A stretch of DNA of 64,000 nucleotides, from the IMG/VR virus record IMGVR_UViG_3300023179_000062, positions 1 to 64,000 of that record, one strand, 5' to 3'. The position numbers and the translations under genes are program-made. Shown one piece after another: positions 1 through 4,372 of the stretch; positions within the stretch are counted from its first letter, which is position 1, and every line of letters starts with the position of its first letter. The notes below the pieces were generated by a model. It made no database searches. It was not told the origin of the DNA and worked only from the letters and a program-made list of their open reading frames with translations. Source of the DNA: a virus.

Positions 1-333
1 TGATTTATGAAAGATATTTTTCCACTTAGTTATTTTTCCAGAATAACCTAGTTAATTCTAGCTTGTATAAACACCTAGTTTGTATAAAATTATAAATTCA
101 GCCCCTCCCACAATTTTTTTCAACTCAATTATTTTTCCCCATATCCATCAAATTTCTCAATTATGTTTTATTTCATTACTTTTTATTTCATTACTTTTTT
201 AATGTTTCTTTTCTCTTGCTTTTCTGGATGGACTATGCTGGGATTATGGCTACTCTTTTATCTTTGTGATTAGAGCTTGACATTATTTCTCCAAGGTGTA
301 ATATACCCCCTGAACAACCCCCTTGCAAACTAT

Positions 334-531
334 ATGAAACGCCCCGCCTTTACTGAAGCTCAAGAAGAAGCACTTGGAAATGCCATAATCAATCTCTTAG
401 GATTGAAATTTACTAAGGAGCACCCTGATCGTGTGAATACTTCAGGCGGAACTAAAACCGCGCTTGGACTAGGGCGAACCGTGATTTTTGAAATGGAAAA
501 GATTGAAGAAAAGAGTTTGACAACCCCTTGA
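334..531 (+). CDS. hypothetical early protein (65 aa)
   Basis: ATG at 334 preferred, because the TTG start at 277 in the ORF track is the -35 box of a promoter. Confidence 0.65.
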   Translation: MKRPAFTEAQEEALGNAIINLLGLKFTKEHPDRVNTSGGTKTALGLGRTVIFEMEKIEEKSLTTP

Positions 532-549
532 AATAGAGTATAGTATCCT

Positions 550-642
550 ATGACTTACAAACAAGCAAATGTTCTAATCTGTCTTATGGTGATTCCTTGC
601 ATTTACCAAATTTATCAAATTTACAAAATGGCAACTCCCTGA
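550..642 (+). CDS. 30-aa hydrophobic micro-protein (MTYKQANVLICLMVIPCIYQIYQIYKMATP)
   Basis: ATG 5 nt after TATAGT -10 box (539-544); single TM-like stretch. Confidence 0.5.
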   Translation: MTYKQANVLICLMVIPCIYQIYQIYKMATP

Positions 643-793
643 AAAGAGTATTTGACAACCCCCTGAAAAGGGTTATAGTAGGGGACTAGCTATCTAGACG
701 CTCCTACTAAAAAGAAAAAGAAAGACTTTGACAAAGGGCGAGAATGTGGTAACTTGTCCTAAGCAGTGAGAACGGAGAATCTCATAGAGCTAT

Positions 794-848
794 AATTCTA
801 AGGGAACCTAATCAAAATAATAAAAGAAGTGCAGGTTCCCTTAGAATT
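794..848. repeat. Inverted pair of 16-bp motif AATTCTAAGGGAACCT (794-809 +, 833-848 -)
   Basis: Perfect inverted repeat with 23-nt spacer; third copy at 2649-2664. Confidence 0.9.
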
Positions 849-894
849 TACCGGCTGGGAGTGCTTGTTAGCCGTCCTTCGGTGGTGTATGGGT

Positions 895-922
895 ATAATA
901 CACTATGGCTGGCCGTTGTCAA
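895..922 (-). promoter_or_regulatory. Minus-strand sigma70-type promoter
   Basis: Reverse complement reads TTGACA-acggccagccatagtg-TATTAT. Confidence 0.7.
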
Positions 923-1113
923 CAAAAACCTTTTCTATTTCATCTAGGGAAAAACGAATGATTTACCTACGTGTCTCAATAAGAGGTCTTATTGAGAATC
1001 GTGTGAGTTGGCCAAATCAGTTGTTGACTTAACTTATAAAACGGGTATAATGATGCCCCATGAAGAAATCAGTTGTTGACTAATACCAAACAATACACTA
1101 AACTAGCCGTCCT

Positions 1114-1350
1114 ATGAAAAACCTATTCGCCAAATCCCGCACTATCAAAGAACCGAAACCCTCTAAATGGAATTTCAAGCGCAAGCGTGAGCGCAATCTG
1201 CCAAGCGATTACGGCGGCAAGATTACCCGCGCTGCTGGTGGCTTGTATCGTTTCGGCCCCTTCACTGATACGCTTGAAACCCTCAAAGCCTATGCACGCA
1301 CTCTCAAGCTGGAATACCTGAAAATGGGTGCCGTTAGCATCAAACTTTAA
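1114..1350 (+). CDS. small basic hypothetical early protein
   Basis: 78-aa ORF just downstream of promoter 1076-1104; Lys/Arg-rich. Confidence 0.7.
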   Translation: MKNLFAKSRTIKEPKPSKWNFKRKRERNLPSDYGGKITRAAGGLYRFGPFTDTLETLKAYARTLKLEYLKMGAVSIKL

Positions 1351-1356
1351 TCTCAA

Positions 1357-1506
1357 TTGAATGTTTTTGAGAGACTTAATTTAACTTAAAGGTTCAAGCT
1401 TCGCACTAAGAAGAAAGCGGATTACTTGCCAGATATTAAAATAACAGTGTCTTAAACTGTCAATATAGGTGATTACATAGTCCTATAGTCTCTCAAAAGC
1501 ATTCAA
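1357..1506 (+). ncRNA. candidate ~150-nt multibranch structured RNA
   Basis: 20-bp closing stem (1357-1376 with 1487-1506, one U-G wobble) enclosing smaller hairpins (ACAGT/ACTGT, TATAGG/CCTATA); intergenic. Confidence 0.5.
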
Positions 1507-1627
1507 ATTCAAAATTTCTTCCTTGAAACATTCGGGTAAAAAGAGCTTGCAATCGTTTGGAAAGGTGGTAAGGTAAGAACGTTAAGTTAAGGTAACAAAT
1601 AACAAAATCAGTCGAGAATCAAAATCT

Positions 1628-1780
1628 ATGAAAACTGGCATCATTGAACGAATCAGCACGGCAACCAATAAGACAGAGCTTGATGCTCTGGTGACGGAAA
1701 TGGAAGGGTACAAGCATATTGCCCCTGCAACCTTGCGGCGTGGCTATCGCAAAGCAAATGCCATCCTGCGAACGTTCTAA
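1628..1780 (+). CDS. 50-aa hypothetical early protein (MKTGIIERIST...AILRTF)
   Basis: Clean ORF below the track's length cut-off; codon style like neighbours; followed by a hairpin. Confidence 0.6.
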   Translation: MKTGIIERISTATNKTELDALVTEMEGYKHIAPATLRRGYRKANAILRTF

Positions 1781-1807
1781 AACTTTCGGTGTTAGGTGTG
1801 TTGGGTA

Positions 1808-1856
1808 ACGTGGGGAGACTCTAAGGGGAAAGGTAGTACCTTTAGAGTCTCTACGT
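1808..1856 (+). terminator. stem-loop (terminator or RNA element)
   Basis: GAGACTCTAAGG...CCTTTAGAGTCTC inverted repeat downstream of ORF 1628-1780. Confidence 0.5.
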
Positions 1857-1881
1857 GTTCTCTAATTACAATAAAACCATA

Positions 1882-2019
1882 ATGTCTTTCATTTCATTCT
1901 GTCTAGCTCTTACAGCTATTCATATATTGATGCTAGTTTTTCGAGTATGTTCTAAGACTCAACTGGTGGCACAAGCCATTTTAATTTTAATTCTGTTTTT
2001 CTATTTGACAAATAATTGA
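1882..2019 (+). CDS. 45-aa hydrophobic micro-protein
   Basis: MSFISFCLALTAIHILMLVF...AILILILFFYLTNN; two hydrophobic stretches. Confidence 0.4.
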   Translation: MSFISFCLALTAIHILMLVFRVCSKTQLVAQAILILILFFYLTNN

Positions 2020-2072
2020 AATGGGGTATAATGTCGTCGTCAAGGAAACCTTAACTCCGATAGAAAATACCT

Positions 2073-2525
2073 ATGCAAAGCGTCCCGATTATTGAACAGT
2101 TGAGAATCGCAACCCGTAAAGGCAACCGCCTTGCTACTGCGATTGGTGCCATCCTCGGTACCGTTGTCCCCGTCATGGTATATGCTGTGACTCATCATCT
2201 GCCTAAACTCTCATTTATTGATCCAGCATTTTATGTGCTGGCAGTTATGGGAATCGGTGGGTGCTTCTTCTCCCTGAAGTCCGTGATTCAGTGGGGGCAG
2301 TTAGCATTTAATAATGATAAAGCGAAAGCGGTGTCATTTGCGGTGCTGCTAGAAGGCATGCTGGTGATGTCCGGCATGGTAAATGAGTTAGGCTGGTTAG
2401 GCTGGGCCGCACTGGCTTACCTTTGCATGATCAATGCTGTGTCAGCAGGATGCAGTATCGCCATGCAATCCAAGGAATGGACAAGCGAAAAGAGACGTTC
2501 CTTGCCAAAGAAAAGCAAGAAATAA
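2073..2525 (+). CDS. membrane protein, about 4 TM helices
   Basis: 150 aa with four hydrophobic segments; own promoter (2005-2032) and terminator. Confidence 0.8.
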   Translation: MQSVPIIEQLRIATRKGNRLATAIGAILGTVVPVMVYAVTHHLPKLSFIDPAFYVLAVMGIGGCFFSLKSVIQWGQLAFNNDKAKAVSFAVLLEGMLVMSGMVNELGWLGWAALAYLCMINAVSAGCSIAMQSKEWTSEKRRSLPKKSKK

Positions 2526-2537
2526 GGAATAAGAAAT

Positions 2538-2574
2538 AAAAGCGCCTAGTGGTTCATTCCACTAGGCGCTTTTT
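2538..2574 (+). terminator. Rho-independent terminator
   Basis: AGCGCCTAGTGG-ttcatt-CCACTAGGCGCT followed by a T run. Confidence 0.9.
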
Positions 2575-2648
2575 CATATTGACATTAGATCGAATTAGAT
2601 TAGAATAAGCGTACCAAGCAGCGGCACCCTTTGCACCTGTAGATGGTT

Positions 2649-2664
2649 AATTCTAAGGGAACCT
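2649..2664 (+). repeat. third copy of AATTCTAAGGGAACCT
   Basis: Identical to 794-809; 42 nt downstream of -10 box 2601-2606. Confidence 0.9.
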
Positions 2665-2808
2665 ACTCAGGCTCTCTCATATTTGCGACTCAAGAAAAAA
2701 CATTCGTAAAAGAATAAAAGAGCTTGTGCATTCTTCCCTGTATGGTATAATTCCGTTGTCAGCAACTCCGCTGGCACTCACCAAAAACAACGTTAGAATC
2801 CTACTCCT

Positions 2809-3978
2809 ATGTCACACGAAATCATCCAGCCTTATGATCGCACTCTCTCCACCGTCGGCAGTGAATGGCACGGCCTCGCAGAGCAAGTTGAAAAAATCAC
2901 CCCTGAACTCCTGAAAGAGCGCGGCATCTTCTTCCCCATCAAACAGGGAACCGTGCTTAACTCTCTCACTGATGGCGTGAGCTTCCCTGAAGCACTCGCT
3001 GCCGTTACTGCCGCAATCAATGCAGGCGATAATGAAGGCGCAAAACTCGCTCTCGATGCCTTGGGCCTTGCTCAAATCAGCACGCACAAAAACATCATTG
3101 CCGACTTGCGCGGTCTGCGTCCTGACCTTGAAACGGAAGAGTATGCTATGGGCCTTGTCCCTTTGCACGTCACGAAAAAATCCTACGAAGTGATTTCTAA
3201 TGAGCGCGTCTATCAGGTTATCTCTGAAGCGTTCAAAGATTGCCCCATCACTAGCGCGGGAACGCTCCAAGCTCTCCAAGTGTTTTTCATGTCTCTTGAT
3301 ATCGGTGACAATACTCGCAAGGGGCCGCGTGGTGAAACGTTCATGCAAAATCTGAACGCTCTCACCAGTCACAACGGCACGCTTGGAACGCGCTTCTATG
3401 ATTCCTGCGTTCGTATCGTTTGTATGAACACTGTCCGCGCTTCTCTCTCGTCCCGTGGCTTGCTTGATTTCGTGGTTTATCATACTAAGGGCGCTGATGC
3501 CGCTCTGTCTAAGGTTAGCAATGACCTTTCTGCCGTGATGAATGCTCGCAATGAATACTTCAACGGCTTGGAAATCCTCGACACCGTTTCTTGTGATGTG
3601 GCAACGGCTCGTAACTTGTTCCTTGCTTATACGGCACGCATGGCCGAAGAAAAGGGCGCGGATGTTTCCAAATTTGAAATTTCAACGCAAGTTTACAACC
3701 GCGCTGAAGAGATTGGTACGATGTTCGTTCGTGGCAAGGGCAACCGTGGCGCAAATCTCTATGATGCCTATAATGCCCTTACTGAATGTTTCACGCATGG
3801 AGTCGGCGCGGGTAAGACAGCCACGGCAGAAGATAAATTCACTGCTGGCTTGTTCGGAACCGCTGCCGATATCAAAGAGGGCTATCTGTCCTTCCTGCTT
3901 CAACCTGAAGACGTTCGGACAGCACTCAATGAACAAGGTGCCCGCTTGCTCGCCACCTATGCTCAACGCAAAGCATAA
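2809..3978 (+). CDS. DUF932/DUF945-like phage/plasmid protein
   Basis: Motifs WHGL, YEVISN, SHNG...VRIVCMNT, HT, NLYDAYNALTE resemble the DUF932 (TIGR03299-type) family. Confidence 0.8.
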   Translation: MSHEIIQPYDRTLSTVGSEWHGLAEQVEKITPELLKERGIFFPIKQGTVLNSLTDGVSFPEALAAVTAAINAGDNEGAKLALDALGLAQISTHKNIIADLRGLRPDLETEEYAMGLVPLHVTKKSYEVISNERVYQVISEAFKDCPITSAGTLQALQVFFMSLDIGDNTRKGPRGETFMQNLNALTSHNGTLGTRFYDSCVRIVCMNTVRASLSSRGLLDFVVYHTKGADAALSKVSNDLSAVMNARNEYFNGLEILDTVSCDVATARNLFLAYTARMAEEKGADVSKFEISTQVYNRAEEIGTMFVRGKGNRGANLYDAYNALTECFTHGVGAGKTATAEDKFTAGLFGTAADIKEGYLSFLLQPEDVRTALNEQGARLLATYAQRKA

Positions 3979-4007
3979 GCAAATGAGAGGCTAGTCAAAT
4001 GACCTAC

Positions 4008-4040
4008 GAGAGAGGGAGACAATCAAAGTCTCCCTCTCTC
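4008..4040 (+). terminator. stem-loop terminator
   Basis: GAGAGAGGGAGAC-aatcaaa-GTCTCCCTCTCTC (13-bp stem). Confidence 0.75.
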
Positions 4041-4083
4041 CATTTAGAGCTTGCATTCTTTTTCAAATAGCGTATTATTTTGT

Positions 4084-4233
4084 ATGATCTACTCCACCCT
4101 TTCTAACGGCCATCTTATCCCCTGCATGCTTCCTATCGGTTCTATGTACCAAACGCAATGGGGCATGCGTCAGGTTGTCGGACATGTACGCACTGCCCCG
4201 CCCTCCCCTTCTACTGAACCTTATGGCGTTTAG
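4084..4233 (+). CDS. 49-aa hypothetical protein
   Basis: ATG 5 nt after -10 box TATTAT (4073-4078); track start at 4051 is the -35 box. Confidence 0.45.
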   Translation: MIYSTLSNGHLIPCMLPIGSMYQTQWGMRQVVGHVRTAPPSPSTEPYGV

Positions 4234-4288
4234 TCTTTGACAGCTTGCCCTTGCTATGCTATACTGTCGTACACCCCGCACCCCTCCT

Positions 4289-4372
4289 ATGATCTACCTC
4301 GTCTCTTTCCCCGTTGCTCTTACGCTTTTTTTTCCGATTATGATTAAATTCCTTTCATTTGTGATTAATTAG
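4289..4372 (+). CDS. 27-aa hydrophobic micro-protein
   Basis: MIYLVSFPVALTLFFPIMIKFLSFVIN downstream of promoter 4237-4265. Confidence 0.35.
   Translation: MIYLVSFPVALTLFFPIMIKFLSFVIN

What the first reader, a model, noticed from the sequence alone, without database searches (positions are those of the whole stretch)
728..922. Convergent promoter-variable-AATTCTAAGGGAACCT units: candidate small-RNA family (units 1 and 2)
Seen: a + strand sigma70 promoter (728-755) and a - strand promoter (922-895) face each other. Each is followed by 38-46 nt of unique, hairpin-forming, non-coding sequence and then the identical 16-mer (794-809 +; 848-833 -). The same architecture recurs at 2579-2664. Inference: these are early small RNAs with a variable 5' part and a constant 3' handle (guide-like RNA, solitary-repeat RNA anti-CRISPR mimic, or replication primer RNA), or promoters with a shared downstream protein-binding or roadblock site.
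Basis: partly seen in the sequence, partly recalled or inferred. Interest (0 to 1): 0.72.

Follow-up and report, generated by a model that had tools for sequence, protein, structure and literature searches.

The report
Orphan AbiF-antitoxin-like small RNAs in phage
Three strongly promoted, ORF-less units at the start of this large T4-like phage contig encode a conserved folded small RNA whose invariant 16-base loop is identical to that of the RNA sitting in the antitoxin position of an AbiF abortive-infection toxin in gut prophages, so they are most likely RNA decoys that disarm that bacterial defence.

Summary
The exact 16-mer lies at 794-809(+), 833-848(-) and 2649-2664(+). Each copy is 38-46 nt downstream of a sigma70-type -10 box.

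The interpretation needs changing. The "variable" part is not a guide. It is a conserved fold (P1, A-A/G, P2 hairpin, a 4-nt 3' bulge, P1') with compensatory changes in all 7 pairs tested. At least 18 units in 9 or more viral contigs share it.

A shorter form of the same RNA has the same loop and a rho-independent terminator. In temperate-phage contigs it lies 15 nt upstream of an Abi_2/AbiF gene, with no room for a second promoter. This is the layout of the published AbiF/RCd22 (AbiFr) type III toxin-antitoxin system.

An AbiF homologue at 56% identity carries a diverged copy of the RNA. More distant homologues carry related leaders. The T4-like contigs, including one complete 172-kb genome, have no Abi_2 gene. 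There the RNAs lie in early regions beside ArdC and DUF932 genes.

Best reading (about 0.5): orphan AbiF-antitoxin mimics expressed early to block abortive infection. Rfam 15 does not recognise them, so they are not members of RF03085. No expression or binding data could be obtained.

Verdict: a new variant of a known kind.

The parts
728..755 (+). Promoter of unit 1: -35 TTGACA 728-733, 16-nt spacer ending in TGG (extended -10), -10 TAACTT 750-755
   Evidence: Read. Not called by the scanner because the -10 hexamer is weak. Conserved in G004.
762..810 (+). Unit 1 RNA: P1 762-764/789-791, junction AG 765-766, P2 767-771/780-784, 3' bulge UAGA 785-788, 16-mer 794-809, A810 as candidate partner of U785
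   Evidence: Parse; R1 model E 3.9e-9; fold. The G002 orthologue has a fully compensated P2 (CAAU/AUUG in place of UGAGA/UCUCA).
794..848 (.). Perfect 16-bp inverted repeat formed by the 16-mers of units 1 and 2, with a 23-nt A/U-rich spacer. Possible shared 3'-end-forming hairpin for the two convergent transcripts.
   Evidence: It gives only a sub-threshold Rfam hairpin match (Plastid-psbJ-5, 31.8 bits against a gathering score of 53.1), judged to be chance.
832..883 (-). Unit 2 RNA: P1 883-880/853-850, junction AA 879-878, P2 877-875/860-858, 3' bulge CAGC 857-854, 16-mer 848-833, G832 as candidate partner of C857
   Evidence: R1 E 8.5e-15. Orthologues in G004 and in G006/L058.
895..922 (-). 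Promoter of unit 2: TTGACA-16-TATTAT
   Evidence: 11/12.
2579..2606 (+). Promoter of unit 3: TTGACA-16-TAGAAT, directly after the bidirectional terminator at 2538-2573
2613..2665 (+). Unit 3 RNA: P1 ACCA/UGGU, junction AG, P2 CAG(C)GG...CCUG, 3' bulge UAGA, 16-mer 2649-2664, A2665
   Evidence: R1 E 1.2e-13. The G004 orthologue shows two compensatory pairs in P2 (CAG/CUG to CGA/UCG).
2809..3978 (+). DUF932 gene downstream of unit 3, preceded by a further promoter-like site near 2726-2755. This is context (a leading-region type gene), not part of the RNA.
   Evidence: Pfam PF06067 E 1.4e-18; phrog_1221.

Best explanation
Each unit is a small-RNA gene transcribed by host RNA polymerase from an early sigma70-type promoter.

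The fold. The RNA starts at or a few nt before helix P1. It folds into P1, a 2-nt 5' junction (AA or AG), a variable P2 hairpin, a 4-nt 3' bulge (CAGC or UAGA) and P1'. The invariant stretch AAUUCUAAG(G/U)GAAC follows as a loop. A short helix probably closes this loop: the first bulge bases (C/U)AG pair with CU(G/A) at the loop's end.

Where else the loop occurs. The same loop, closed by a 7-bp version of that helix and followed by a terminator, forms the leader RNA immediately upstream of an AbiF (Abi_2, HEPN RNase) abortive-infection gene in temperate phages of gut Erysipelotrichaceae-type hosts. In the published AbiF systems the RNA at that position binds and neutralises the toxin.

Inference. 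The T4-like phage has no AbiF gene. It most likely makes these RNAs early in infection as antitoxin mimics. They would keep a host- or prophage-encoded AbiF-type RNase inhibited when the host's own antitoxin RNA runs out, so preventing abortive infection. The three paralogous units would raise the dose or cover variant toxins.

Shown: the copies, the promoters, the fold with covariation, the family, and the genomic association. Inferred: transcription, the 3' ends, binding to AbiF, and the anti-defence effect.
For: Fold:
- On 18 units, 97% of cells are paired and 7 of 7 pairs change on both sides. Slid controls give 21-41% paired.
- The parse fits 18 of 26 units, against 2 of 123 chance matches.
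- Junction AA goes with bulge CAGC and AG goes with UAGA.
- The first bulge base against the base after the 16-mer gives C-G 10, U-A 9 (10 after hand correction of L049), U-G 1 and C-A 4 (3 after that correction).

Family and copy number:
- The R1 model finds 3 units in G000, 2 in G001, 4 in complete G003, 1 in G005 and 2 in G006.

Link to AbiF:
- In L052/L206 and L208, the promoter, the RNA with the same 16-mer (U variant) and a terminator end about 15 nt before an Abi_2 gene (PF07751, E 1e-30).
- A 56%-identical AbiF (L209) carries a diverged copy of the RNA with 3 changes in the 16-mer.
- AbiF homologues at 38-53% identity in Bacilli genomes have related leaders, with loops such as CCAAGGGAAC and CUGAGGGAA and a closing helix GUAG/CUAC.
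- The near-identical Holdemanella protein matches the solved AbiF-RNA complex 8VZ6 (E 1.9e-11).

Literature:
- RCd22 neutralises AbiF in cis and in trans by direct binding, in a promoter-RNA-terminator-abiF layout (bioRxiv 10.1101/2025.04.15.648962).
- AbiFr is described as a type III antitoxin (PMC12737573).
- The RF03085 consensus has the same topology as P1-AA-P2-CAGC-P1': outer stem, 1 nt, inner hairpin, 6-nt 3' bulge. The RCd22 linker reads UUGAAGGAACC.

Orphan status:
- No Abi_2 gene was found in G000, G001, G003, G005 or G006.
- Orphan cassettes also occur in temperate contigs. L068/L070 are followed by a NYN gene, L076 by a PemK-like gene and L069 by a recombinase. A 98%-identical PemK locus (L202) lacks the whole cassette.

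Context:
- Units lie upstream of ArdC and DUF932 genes, which are plasmid leading-region type anti-restriction genes.

Precedents:
- An RF03085 abiF sRNA is annotated in the T4-like cyanophage S-CREM1 (PMC9964418).
- Pseudo-ToxI in phage TE suppresses the ToxN toxin (PMC5086642).
Against: - There are no transcript data and no binding data.
- The host of the T4-like phages is unknown. No host genome was found that carries an AbiF gene with this loop.
- The cognate AbiF-linked copies are few (3-4 contigs) and come from Firmicutes-type temperate phages. The major capsid protein of the T4-like phage is only 31% identical to those of cyanophages.
- Rfam's abiF model does not score the units at all.
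- The T4-like form has a 5' domain that the AbiF-linked form lacks, so homology rests mainly on the 16-mer and its closing helix.
- Most T4-like units have no clear terminator. A U-rich run follows 8 of 24, against about 4 expected (p about 0.015).
- The same cassette also stands in front of NYN and PemK genes. It could therefore be a general regulatory leader rather than an AbiF-specific antitoxin.
Confidence: 0.5

Rival explanations
1. Cis-acting leader. The fold and the 16-mer form a 5'-UTR element that controls or protects the downstream cargo genes (DUF932, ArdC, toxins). It would work by attenuation, processive antitermination or mRNA stabilisation, with no role in trans.
For: - Units lie upstream of, and co-oriented with, DUF932 in the window, G002, G004, L049 and G006, and with ArdC and DUF932 in G003.
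- In L052 and L076 the downstream gene has no promoter of its own.
- RCd22 also acts in cis by premature termination.
Against: - Units 1 and 2 converge on each other and lead into no gene.
- A separate promoter often lies between the unit and the gene: near 2726-2755 in the window, and likewise in G003 units a and b.
- Only 5 of 72 DUF932 loci in IMG/VR have a unit within 2.5 kb.
- The PemK gene occurs at 98% identity without the cassette.
- Several temperate-phage copies are followed by no same-strand ORF.
Confidence: 0.2
2. Trans-acting base-pairing sRNA. The exposed 16-nt loop contains a YUNR-like CUAA. It would pair with a conserved host or phage RNA carrying GUUC(C/A)CUUAGAAUU and so regulate or sequester it.
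For: - The loop is invariant and single-stranded, and is presented on a helix.
- The temperate-phage form has classical sRNA architecture: a 5' stem-loop and a terminator.
- The loop is conserved across very different phages.
Against: - No complementary site exists in the window other than the partner unit.
- No target was identified.
- The loop sequence changes together with the AbiF protein clade (L209). This fits protein recognition better than pairing with a universal RNA.
Confidence: 0.12
3. CRISPR-related RNA. The units would be a solitary-repeat mimic (Racr-like) or a guide with a constant handle.
For: The layout superficially resembles published RNA anti-CRISPRs (known to me from memory, not tested here): a promoter-driven, ORF-less unit with a constant segment in an early anti-defence region.
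Against: - None of the 120 listed genome hits to the 16-mer shows multiple copies as an array would. All but one are single chance matches.
- The non-constant part is a conserved fold, not a spacer.
- The constant part is linked to AbiF genes, not to cas genes.
Confidence: 0.04
4. DNA-level element. The 16-mer would be a protein-binding, roadblock or recombination site, and the neighbouring promoters would be incidental.
For: Units 1 and 2 form an inverted pair of sites. The sequence is exactly conserved.
Against: - Compensatory changes in P1 and P2 on one strand only make sense for a transcript.
- The strand is always fixed relative to the promoter.
- The temperate-phage form has a terminator 25-30 nt downstream.
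Confidence: 0.04

Closest known systems
AbiF/AbiFr (RCd22) type III toxin-antitoxin system; abiF RNA motif RF03085
   Same: - A promoter, a short structured RNA and a terminator lie immediately upstream of an Abi_2/HEPN toxin in prophages (L052, L208 and L209, compared with RCd22).
- The topology matches: outer stem, short 5' junction, inner hairpin and a single-stranded 3' bulge.
- A purine-rich AAGG(G)AAC stretch follows the motif.
- The toxin is homologous to the solved AbiF structure 8VZ6.
   Different: - The Rfam model RF03085 does not score the units even in a 65-nt search.
- The invariant 16-nt loop is not part of RF03085.
- Each RNA carries one motif, where RCd22 carries two.
- In the window and other T4-like contigs there is no abiF gene at all.
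Pseudo-ToxI of Pectobacterium phage TE (a phage-borne mimic of a type III antitoxin RNA)
   Same: A lytic phage carries an RNA resembling the antitoxin of an abortive-infection type III system and uses it to suppress the toxin (PMC5086642).
   Different: - ToxI units are 36-nt tandem repeats processed by ToxN. Here each unit is a single copy with its own promoter.
- The toxin family differs: HEPN AbiF here, Kid/MazF-fold ToxN there.
- The function is inferred here, not shown.
abiF sRNA annotated in T4-like cyanophage S-CREM1
   Same: An AbiF-type RNA motif sits in a lytic T4-like phage (PMC9964418).
   Different: - The S-CREM1 RNA is a canonical RF03085 match (51.6 bits).
- The units here are an unmodelled variant, present in 2-4 copies per genome within ArdC/DUF932 early regions.
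PeSL promoter/stem-loop cassettes of T4-type phages
   Same: Short conserved cassettes with near-consensus early promoters in hyperplastic regions of T4-like genomes (PMC4122927).
   Different: - In PeSLs the stem-loop (a terminator) lies upstream of the promoter, and the element ends in a Shine-Dalgarno sequence and a start codon.
- Here the structure lies downstream of the promoter, no ORF follows, and the loop is invariant across unrelated phages.
RNA anti-CRISPRs (Racr, solitary repeat units)
   Same: The concept is the same: phage-encoded, promoter-driven RNA mimics of a defence system's own RNA component (from my own knowledge, not tested here).
   Different: No similarity to any CRISPR repeat was found. 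The mimicked partner appears to be a toxin-antitoxin RNA.

Membership tests
abiF RNA motif (Rfam RF03085) | Scores at or above the gathering threshold (37 bits) of the Rfam covariance model | tested here: not met
   No RF03085 match at gathering score in the window. None at E<=10 in 600-2800, in 2606-2670 alone, or in the AbiF-linked copies. The same tool does find RF03085 in phage CD2301 at 26.6 and 19.5 bits.
abiF RNA motif (Rfam RF03085) | Outer stem, 1-nt 5' junction, inner hairpin and single-stranded 3' bulge | tested here: met
   P1 / AA or AG / P2 / CAGC or UAGA / P1' is supported by covariation. The RF03085 consensus structure is seen. This is a resemblance of topology only.
AbiF/AbiFr type III toxin-antitoxin locus | The RNA is encoded immediately upstream of an Abi_2/AbiF gene, separated from it by a terminator, with no second promoter | tested here: not met
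   Not met for the window: no Abi_2 gene in G000 or in four other T4-like records. Met for the short form of the same RNA in L052/L206, L208 and L209.
AbiF/AbiFr type III toxin-antitoxin locus | The RNA binds the toxin and neutralises its RNase activity | not testable with these tools
   The complex predictor takes proteins only. This needs co-expression, a gel shift or RNA-protein modelling.
ToxI-type type III antitoxins | Tandem array of near-identical 34-45-nt repeats processed by the toxin | tested here: not met
   Units are single, each with its own promoter. The only tandem case, L073, has two full promoter-plus-unit copies 157 nt apart.
Solitary CRISPR repeat / RNA anti-CRISPR | Sequence matches the repeat of a CRISPR array in host genomes | tested here: inconclusive
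   All 120 listed genome matches are single sites and none is an array.
PeSL cassette | Stem-loop upstream of the early promoter; element ends with a Shine-Dalgarno sequence and the start codon of the next gene | tested here: not met
   Here the structure lies downstream of the promoter and no ORF follows.
Bacterial sigma70-type promoter | TTGACA and TATAAT-like hexamers 16-18 nt apart | tested here: met
   922-895 and 2579-2606 score 11/12. 728-755 has a perfect -35, a weak -10 and an extended TG. Promoters are present at most other units.

The most novel reading that the evidence does not exclude
A previously unmodelled RNA family acts as a portable, protein-free anti-abortive-infection device. 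Both lytic T4-like phages (2-4 early-expressed paralogues per genome) and temperate phages carry orphan copies of the AbiF antitoxin RNA to neutralise HEPN RNase toxins of their hosts or of resident prophages. Because Cas13 is reported to descend from AbiF/AbiFr, such RNAs might also show how phages interfere with HEPN effectors through their RNA partner.
Probability: 0.4. Interest if true: 0.8.

Novelty: new variant of a known kind. Interest (0 to 1): 0.62.

Why it matters
RNA-only counter-defence is known from very few cases: pseudo-ToxI and the RNA anti-CRISPRs. AbiF/Abi_2 is described as widespread in Bacillota and Pseudomonadota (abstract of bioRxiv 10.1101/2025.04.15.648962) and as the proposed ancestor of Cas13 (PMC12737573).

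If these units neutralise AbiF, three things follow:
- They would be the first family of naturally occurring anti-AbiF RNAs.
- They would give a simple sequence signature, the 16-nt loop plus its fold, for finding anti-defence islands in uncultured large phages.
- They would offer small, easily tested inhibitors of a HEPN RNase.

The work also adds a structured RNA family with clear covariation that Rfam 15 lacks. It further shows that the leaders of one AbiF clade differ from RF03085.

Tried and rejected
- Rfam: nothing at gathering score in the window. Lenient searches on small stretches gave only chance hairpin matches.
- tRNA/tmRNA scan: none found.
- Cultured phages and plasmids: BLAST of the window's first 6 kb against INPHARED phages, and of a temperate-phage unit against phages and against PLSDB plasmids, gave no match.
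- Metagenome pattern scan: my pattern fixed the spacing too tightly and returned only 4 chance hits.
- Sequencing runs: no RNA holder was listed.
Upstream regions of AbiF homologues were therefore taken from the genome search instead.
- Literature search for the 16-mer as text: no paper.
- Supplementary tables of the type III TA survey: not held.
- PeSL cassettes: considered and rejected because their stem-loop lies upstream of the promoter.
- Ideas considered from memory and dropped because they could not be tested or did not fit: rrn/lambda boxA-boxB nut-like site, RfaH ops element, 16S helix 45 mimic, tetraloop receptor, Cas12a handle, and ToxI sequence similarity.
- Similarity between the unit downstream regions and the AbiF-linked terminator region: weak (best p about 0.007, uncorrected).
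- A U-run after the 16-mer: only modestly enriched.
- Obligate-leader-of-DUF932 idea: rejected, since only 5 of 72 DUF932 loci have a unit. No RF03085 was found near 20 other DUF932 loci.
- A second constant motif near other DUF932 genes (AAGGTGACAAGGGGC): it lies upstream of promoters and often inside coding sequence, so it is unrelated.

Full report
**What is there**

The window is the first 64 kb of an 85.5-kb IMG/VR viral contig with about 34% GC. Its major capsid protein is only 31% identical to those of T4-like cyanophages.

The first 4.3 kb differ from the rest. GC is 40-50%. The stretch holds many near-consensus sigma70 promoters, tiny ORFs and a DUF932 gene.

The 16-mer AATTCTAAGGGAACCT occurs exactly at 794-809 (+), 833-848 (-) and 2649-2664 (+). 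Promoters at 922-895 (-) and 2579-2606 (+) score 11/12. The promoter at 728-755 (+) has a perfect -35, a weak -10 (TAACTT) and an extended -10 TG. The -10 boxes end 38, 46 and 42 nt before the 16-mer.

**It is a family**

Exact-match scans of IMG/VR found the same layout in unrelated large viral contigs. The layout is a TTGAC-type promoter, then about 30-47 nt, then the 16-mer or a variant with one or two changes.

- G001 has 2 copies.
- G002 has 3.
- G003, a complete 172-kb genome, has 4 copies, all on one strand within 11 kb.
- G004 is a close relative of the window.
- G005, G006/L058, L049 and L073 also carry units.
- One contig binned with a Saccharibacteria MAG (L131) carries one.

Chance occurrences of the 16-mer in bacterial genomes and in coding regions of viruses lack this layout.

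**The 'variable' part is a conserved fold**

Eighteen units parse as follows:
- P1, 3-4 bp;
- A followed by A or G;
- a P2 hairpin of variable length;
- (C/U)A(G/A)(C/A);
- P1';
- 1-2 nt;
- the 16-mer.

On the MAFFT alignment A1, 97% of cells are paired and all 7 pairs show changes on both sides. When the partners are slid by 1-3 columns, only 21-41% are paired.

I selected the units with a rule that demands pairing, so I applied the same rule to controls. It fits 18 of 26 candidate units, 2 of 123 chance 16-mer sites and 0.27% of shuffles.

Orthologous units show clean compensation. P2 of unit 3 is CAG/CUG in the window and CGA/UCG in G004. P2 of unit 1 is UGAGA/UCUCA in the window and CAAU/AUUG in G002.

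Junction AA goes with bulge CAGC, and AG goes with UAGA. The first bulge base also tends to pair with the base that follows the 16-mer: C-G 10, U-A 9-10, U-G 1, C-A 3-4. This suggests a short helix, (C/U)AG with CU(G/A), that closes the 16-mer into a loop and makes a pseudoknot with P1. The units are related to one another, so this last point is only suggestive.

A covariance model (R1) finds 3, 2, 4, 1 and 2 units in G000, G001, G003, G005 and G006.

**A short form, and its neighbours**

A second group of contigs is 30-45 kb long, with XRE-type repressors and integrases. There the promoter is followed within a few nt by UAGCGGUAGAG, then AAUUCUAAGUGAACCU, a small hairpin and a rho-independent terminator. 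In this form the closing helix is 7 bp (GCGGUAG with CUAC(N)YGC) around a 16-nt loop.

The next gene on the same strand varies:
- In L052/L206 and L208 it is an Abi_2 (AbiD/AbiF) gene starting about 15 nt after the terminator.
- In L076 it is a PemK/MazF-like gene about 30 nt after the terminator.
- In L068/L070 it is a NYN-domain gene 190 nt downstream.
- In L069 it is the recombinase.

A PemK locus 98% identical to L076 lacks the whole promoter-RNA-terminator cassette (L202). That association is therefore incidental.

The AbiF association is deeper. A 56%-identical AbiF (L209) carries a diverged copy of the RNA, CAGCGGUAGAG-AAUCCUAAGCGGACCU, followed by a terminator. AbiF homologues at 38-53% identity have promoter-RNA-terminator leaders whose apical parts read CCAAGGGAAC, UUCUGAGGGAA or CUCUAAGGAG. 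These came from IMG/VR and from 33 of 401 sampled Bacilli genomes. Some have a GUAG/CUAC closing helix.

The closest named protein is from Holdemanella biformis. It matches the solved AbiF-RNA complex 8VZ6.

**What is known about this layout**

In Clostridioides difficile, the ncRNA RCd22 lies between a SigA promoter and a terminator directly upstream of abiF. It contains two abiF motifs (RF03085). It neutralises the toxin in cis and in trans by direct binding (bioRxiv 10.1101/2025.04.15.648962).

A review describes AbiF as a type III toxin and AbiFr as its antitoxin. Bases of a single-stranded bulge block the RNase site. The same review proposes AbiF as the ancestor of Cas13 (PMC12737573).

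In phage CD2301 the Rfam model shows the RF03085 consensus: outer stem, A, inner hairpin, CAAAUC bulge, outer stem. The linker between its two motifs reads UUGAAGGAACC.

The T4-like units thus combine an RF03085-like topology with the loop of the L052-type AbiF leader. They are nevertheless not members of RF03085. The model gives no score on them even in a 65-nt search, nor on the AbiF-linked short form.

**Orphan status and context in the T4-like phages**

No Abi_2 gene is present in G000, G001, complete G003, G005 or G006.

Units lie upstream of, and co-oriented with, DUF932 in the window, G002, G004, L049 and G006. In G003 they lie upstream of ArdC and DUF932. These genes are typical of plasmid leading regions and anti-restriction islands (from my own knowledge).

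The unit is not an obligate leader of DUF932. Only 5 of 72 DUF932 loci in IMG/VR have one within 2.5 kb. A further promoter often separates the unit from the gene. Units 1 and 2 face each other and lead into no gene.

**Most likely mechanism**

The units are early-expressed small RNAs that mimic the AbiF antitoxin RNA. They would keep a host- or prophage-encoded AbiF-type RNase inhibited during infection.

There are two precedents. Phage TE suppresses ToxN with a pseudo-ToxI RNA (PMC5086642). The T4-like cyanophage S-CREM1 carries an RF03085 abiF sRNA (PMC9964418).

The following steps are inferred, not shown:
- that the units are transcribed;
- where the RNAs end (a U-rich run follows 8 of 24 units against about 4 expected; the 16-bp inverted repeat of units 1 and 2 may serve both transcripts);
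- that they bind AbiF;
- that the unknown host has a matching AbiF.

I put this reading at about 0.5. The rivals are a purely cis-acting leader (0.2), a base-pairing sRNA with an unknown target (0.12), a CRISPR-repeat mimic or guide (0.04) and a DNA site (0.04).

**Limits**

- No RNA run was listed for this sequence.
- The genome-wide pattern scan was cut at 120 rows.
- My metagenome scan was wasted on a pattern that was too strict.
- E-values from R1 are rough because its calibration was shortened.

**Verdict**

This is a real, conserved structured RNA family that Rfam 15 does not hold. It is best filed as a new variant of the AbiF-antitoxin kind, occurring here as orphan copies with a probable anti-defence role.

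Noticed in passing
window 1-4300: This stretch has 40-50% GC against about 34% in the rest of the contig. It is packed with near-consensus sigma70 promoters (277, 517, 652, 1024, 2005, 2579, 4237), very short ORFs and a DUF932 gene. It looks like an acquired early or anti-defence island at the contig end.
   Followed up: partly
L070:3148-3272 (+): A DUF3800-I RNA (RF02969, 53.8 bits, above the gathering score of 44.2) lies next to the integrase of a temperate-phage contig that also carries an orphan unit.
   Followed up: no
L260, L264, L270 and about 10 further DUF932-bearing viral contigs: A different constant motif, AAGGTGACAAGGGGC, recurs upstream of a U-run and a TTGACA promoter near DUF932 homologues. 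This resembles a PeSL-like terminator/promoter cassette or a protein site. It is unrelated to the 16-mer, and many other matches in IMG/VR lie in coding sequence.
   Followed up: partly
L058:4528-4621 (G006): A convergent pair of units is separated by 62 nt. The spacer consists largely of CTTAGG/CCTAAG palindromes that form two 6-bp hairpins. This is a second kind of spacer between facing units.
   Followed up: no
L226-L255 (Bacilli genomes) and L209-L217 (viral contigs): Abi_2/AbiF homologues very often have a promoter, a 60-90-nt structured RNA and a rho-independent terminator directly upstream. Rfam's RF03085 model did not call any of those tested (L209, L210, L211, L213, L222). The described abiF motif may therefore cover only part of the AbiF leader diversity.
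   Followed up: partly
L073:1715-1931 (-), 204-kb viral contig: Two units stand in tandem 157 nt apart, each with its own promoter. This is the only tandem arrangement seen.
   Followed up: no
L131:3659-3705 (contig binned as Candidatus Saccharibacteria MAG): A full unit (promoter, P1/P2 fold, exact 16-mer, U-run) lies on a 24-kb contig assigned to a CPR bacterium. The contig is either a mis-binned phage or a prophage. It is the only family member among the 120 genome hits listed.
   Followed up: no
window 2538-2573: A strong bidirectional terminator-like hairpin (15 pairs) ends the 150-aa membrane-protein gene (2073-2525) immediately before the promoter of unit 3.
   Followed up: no
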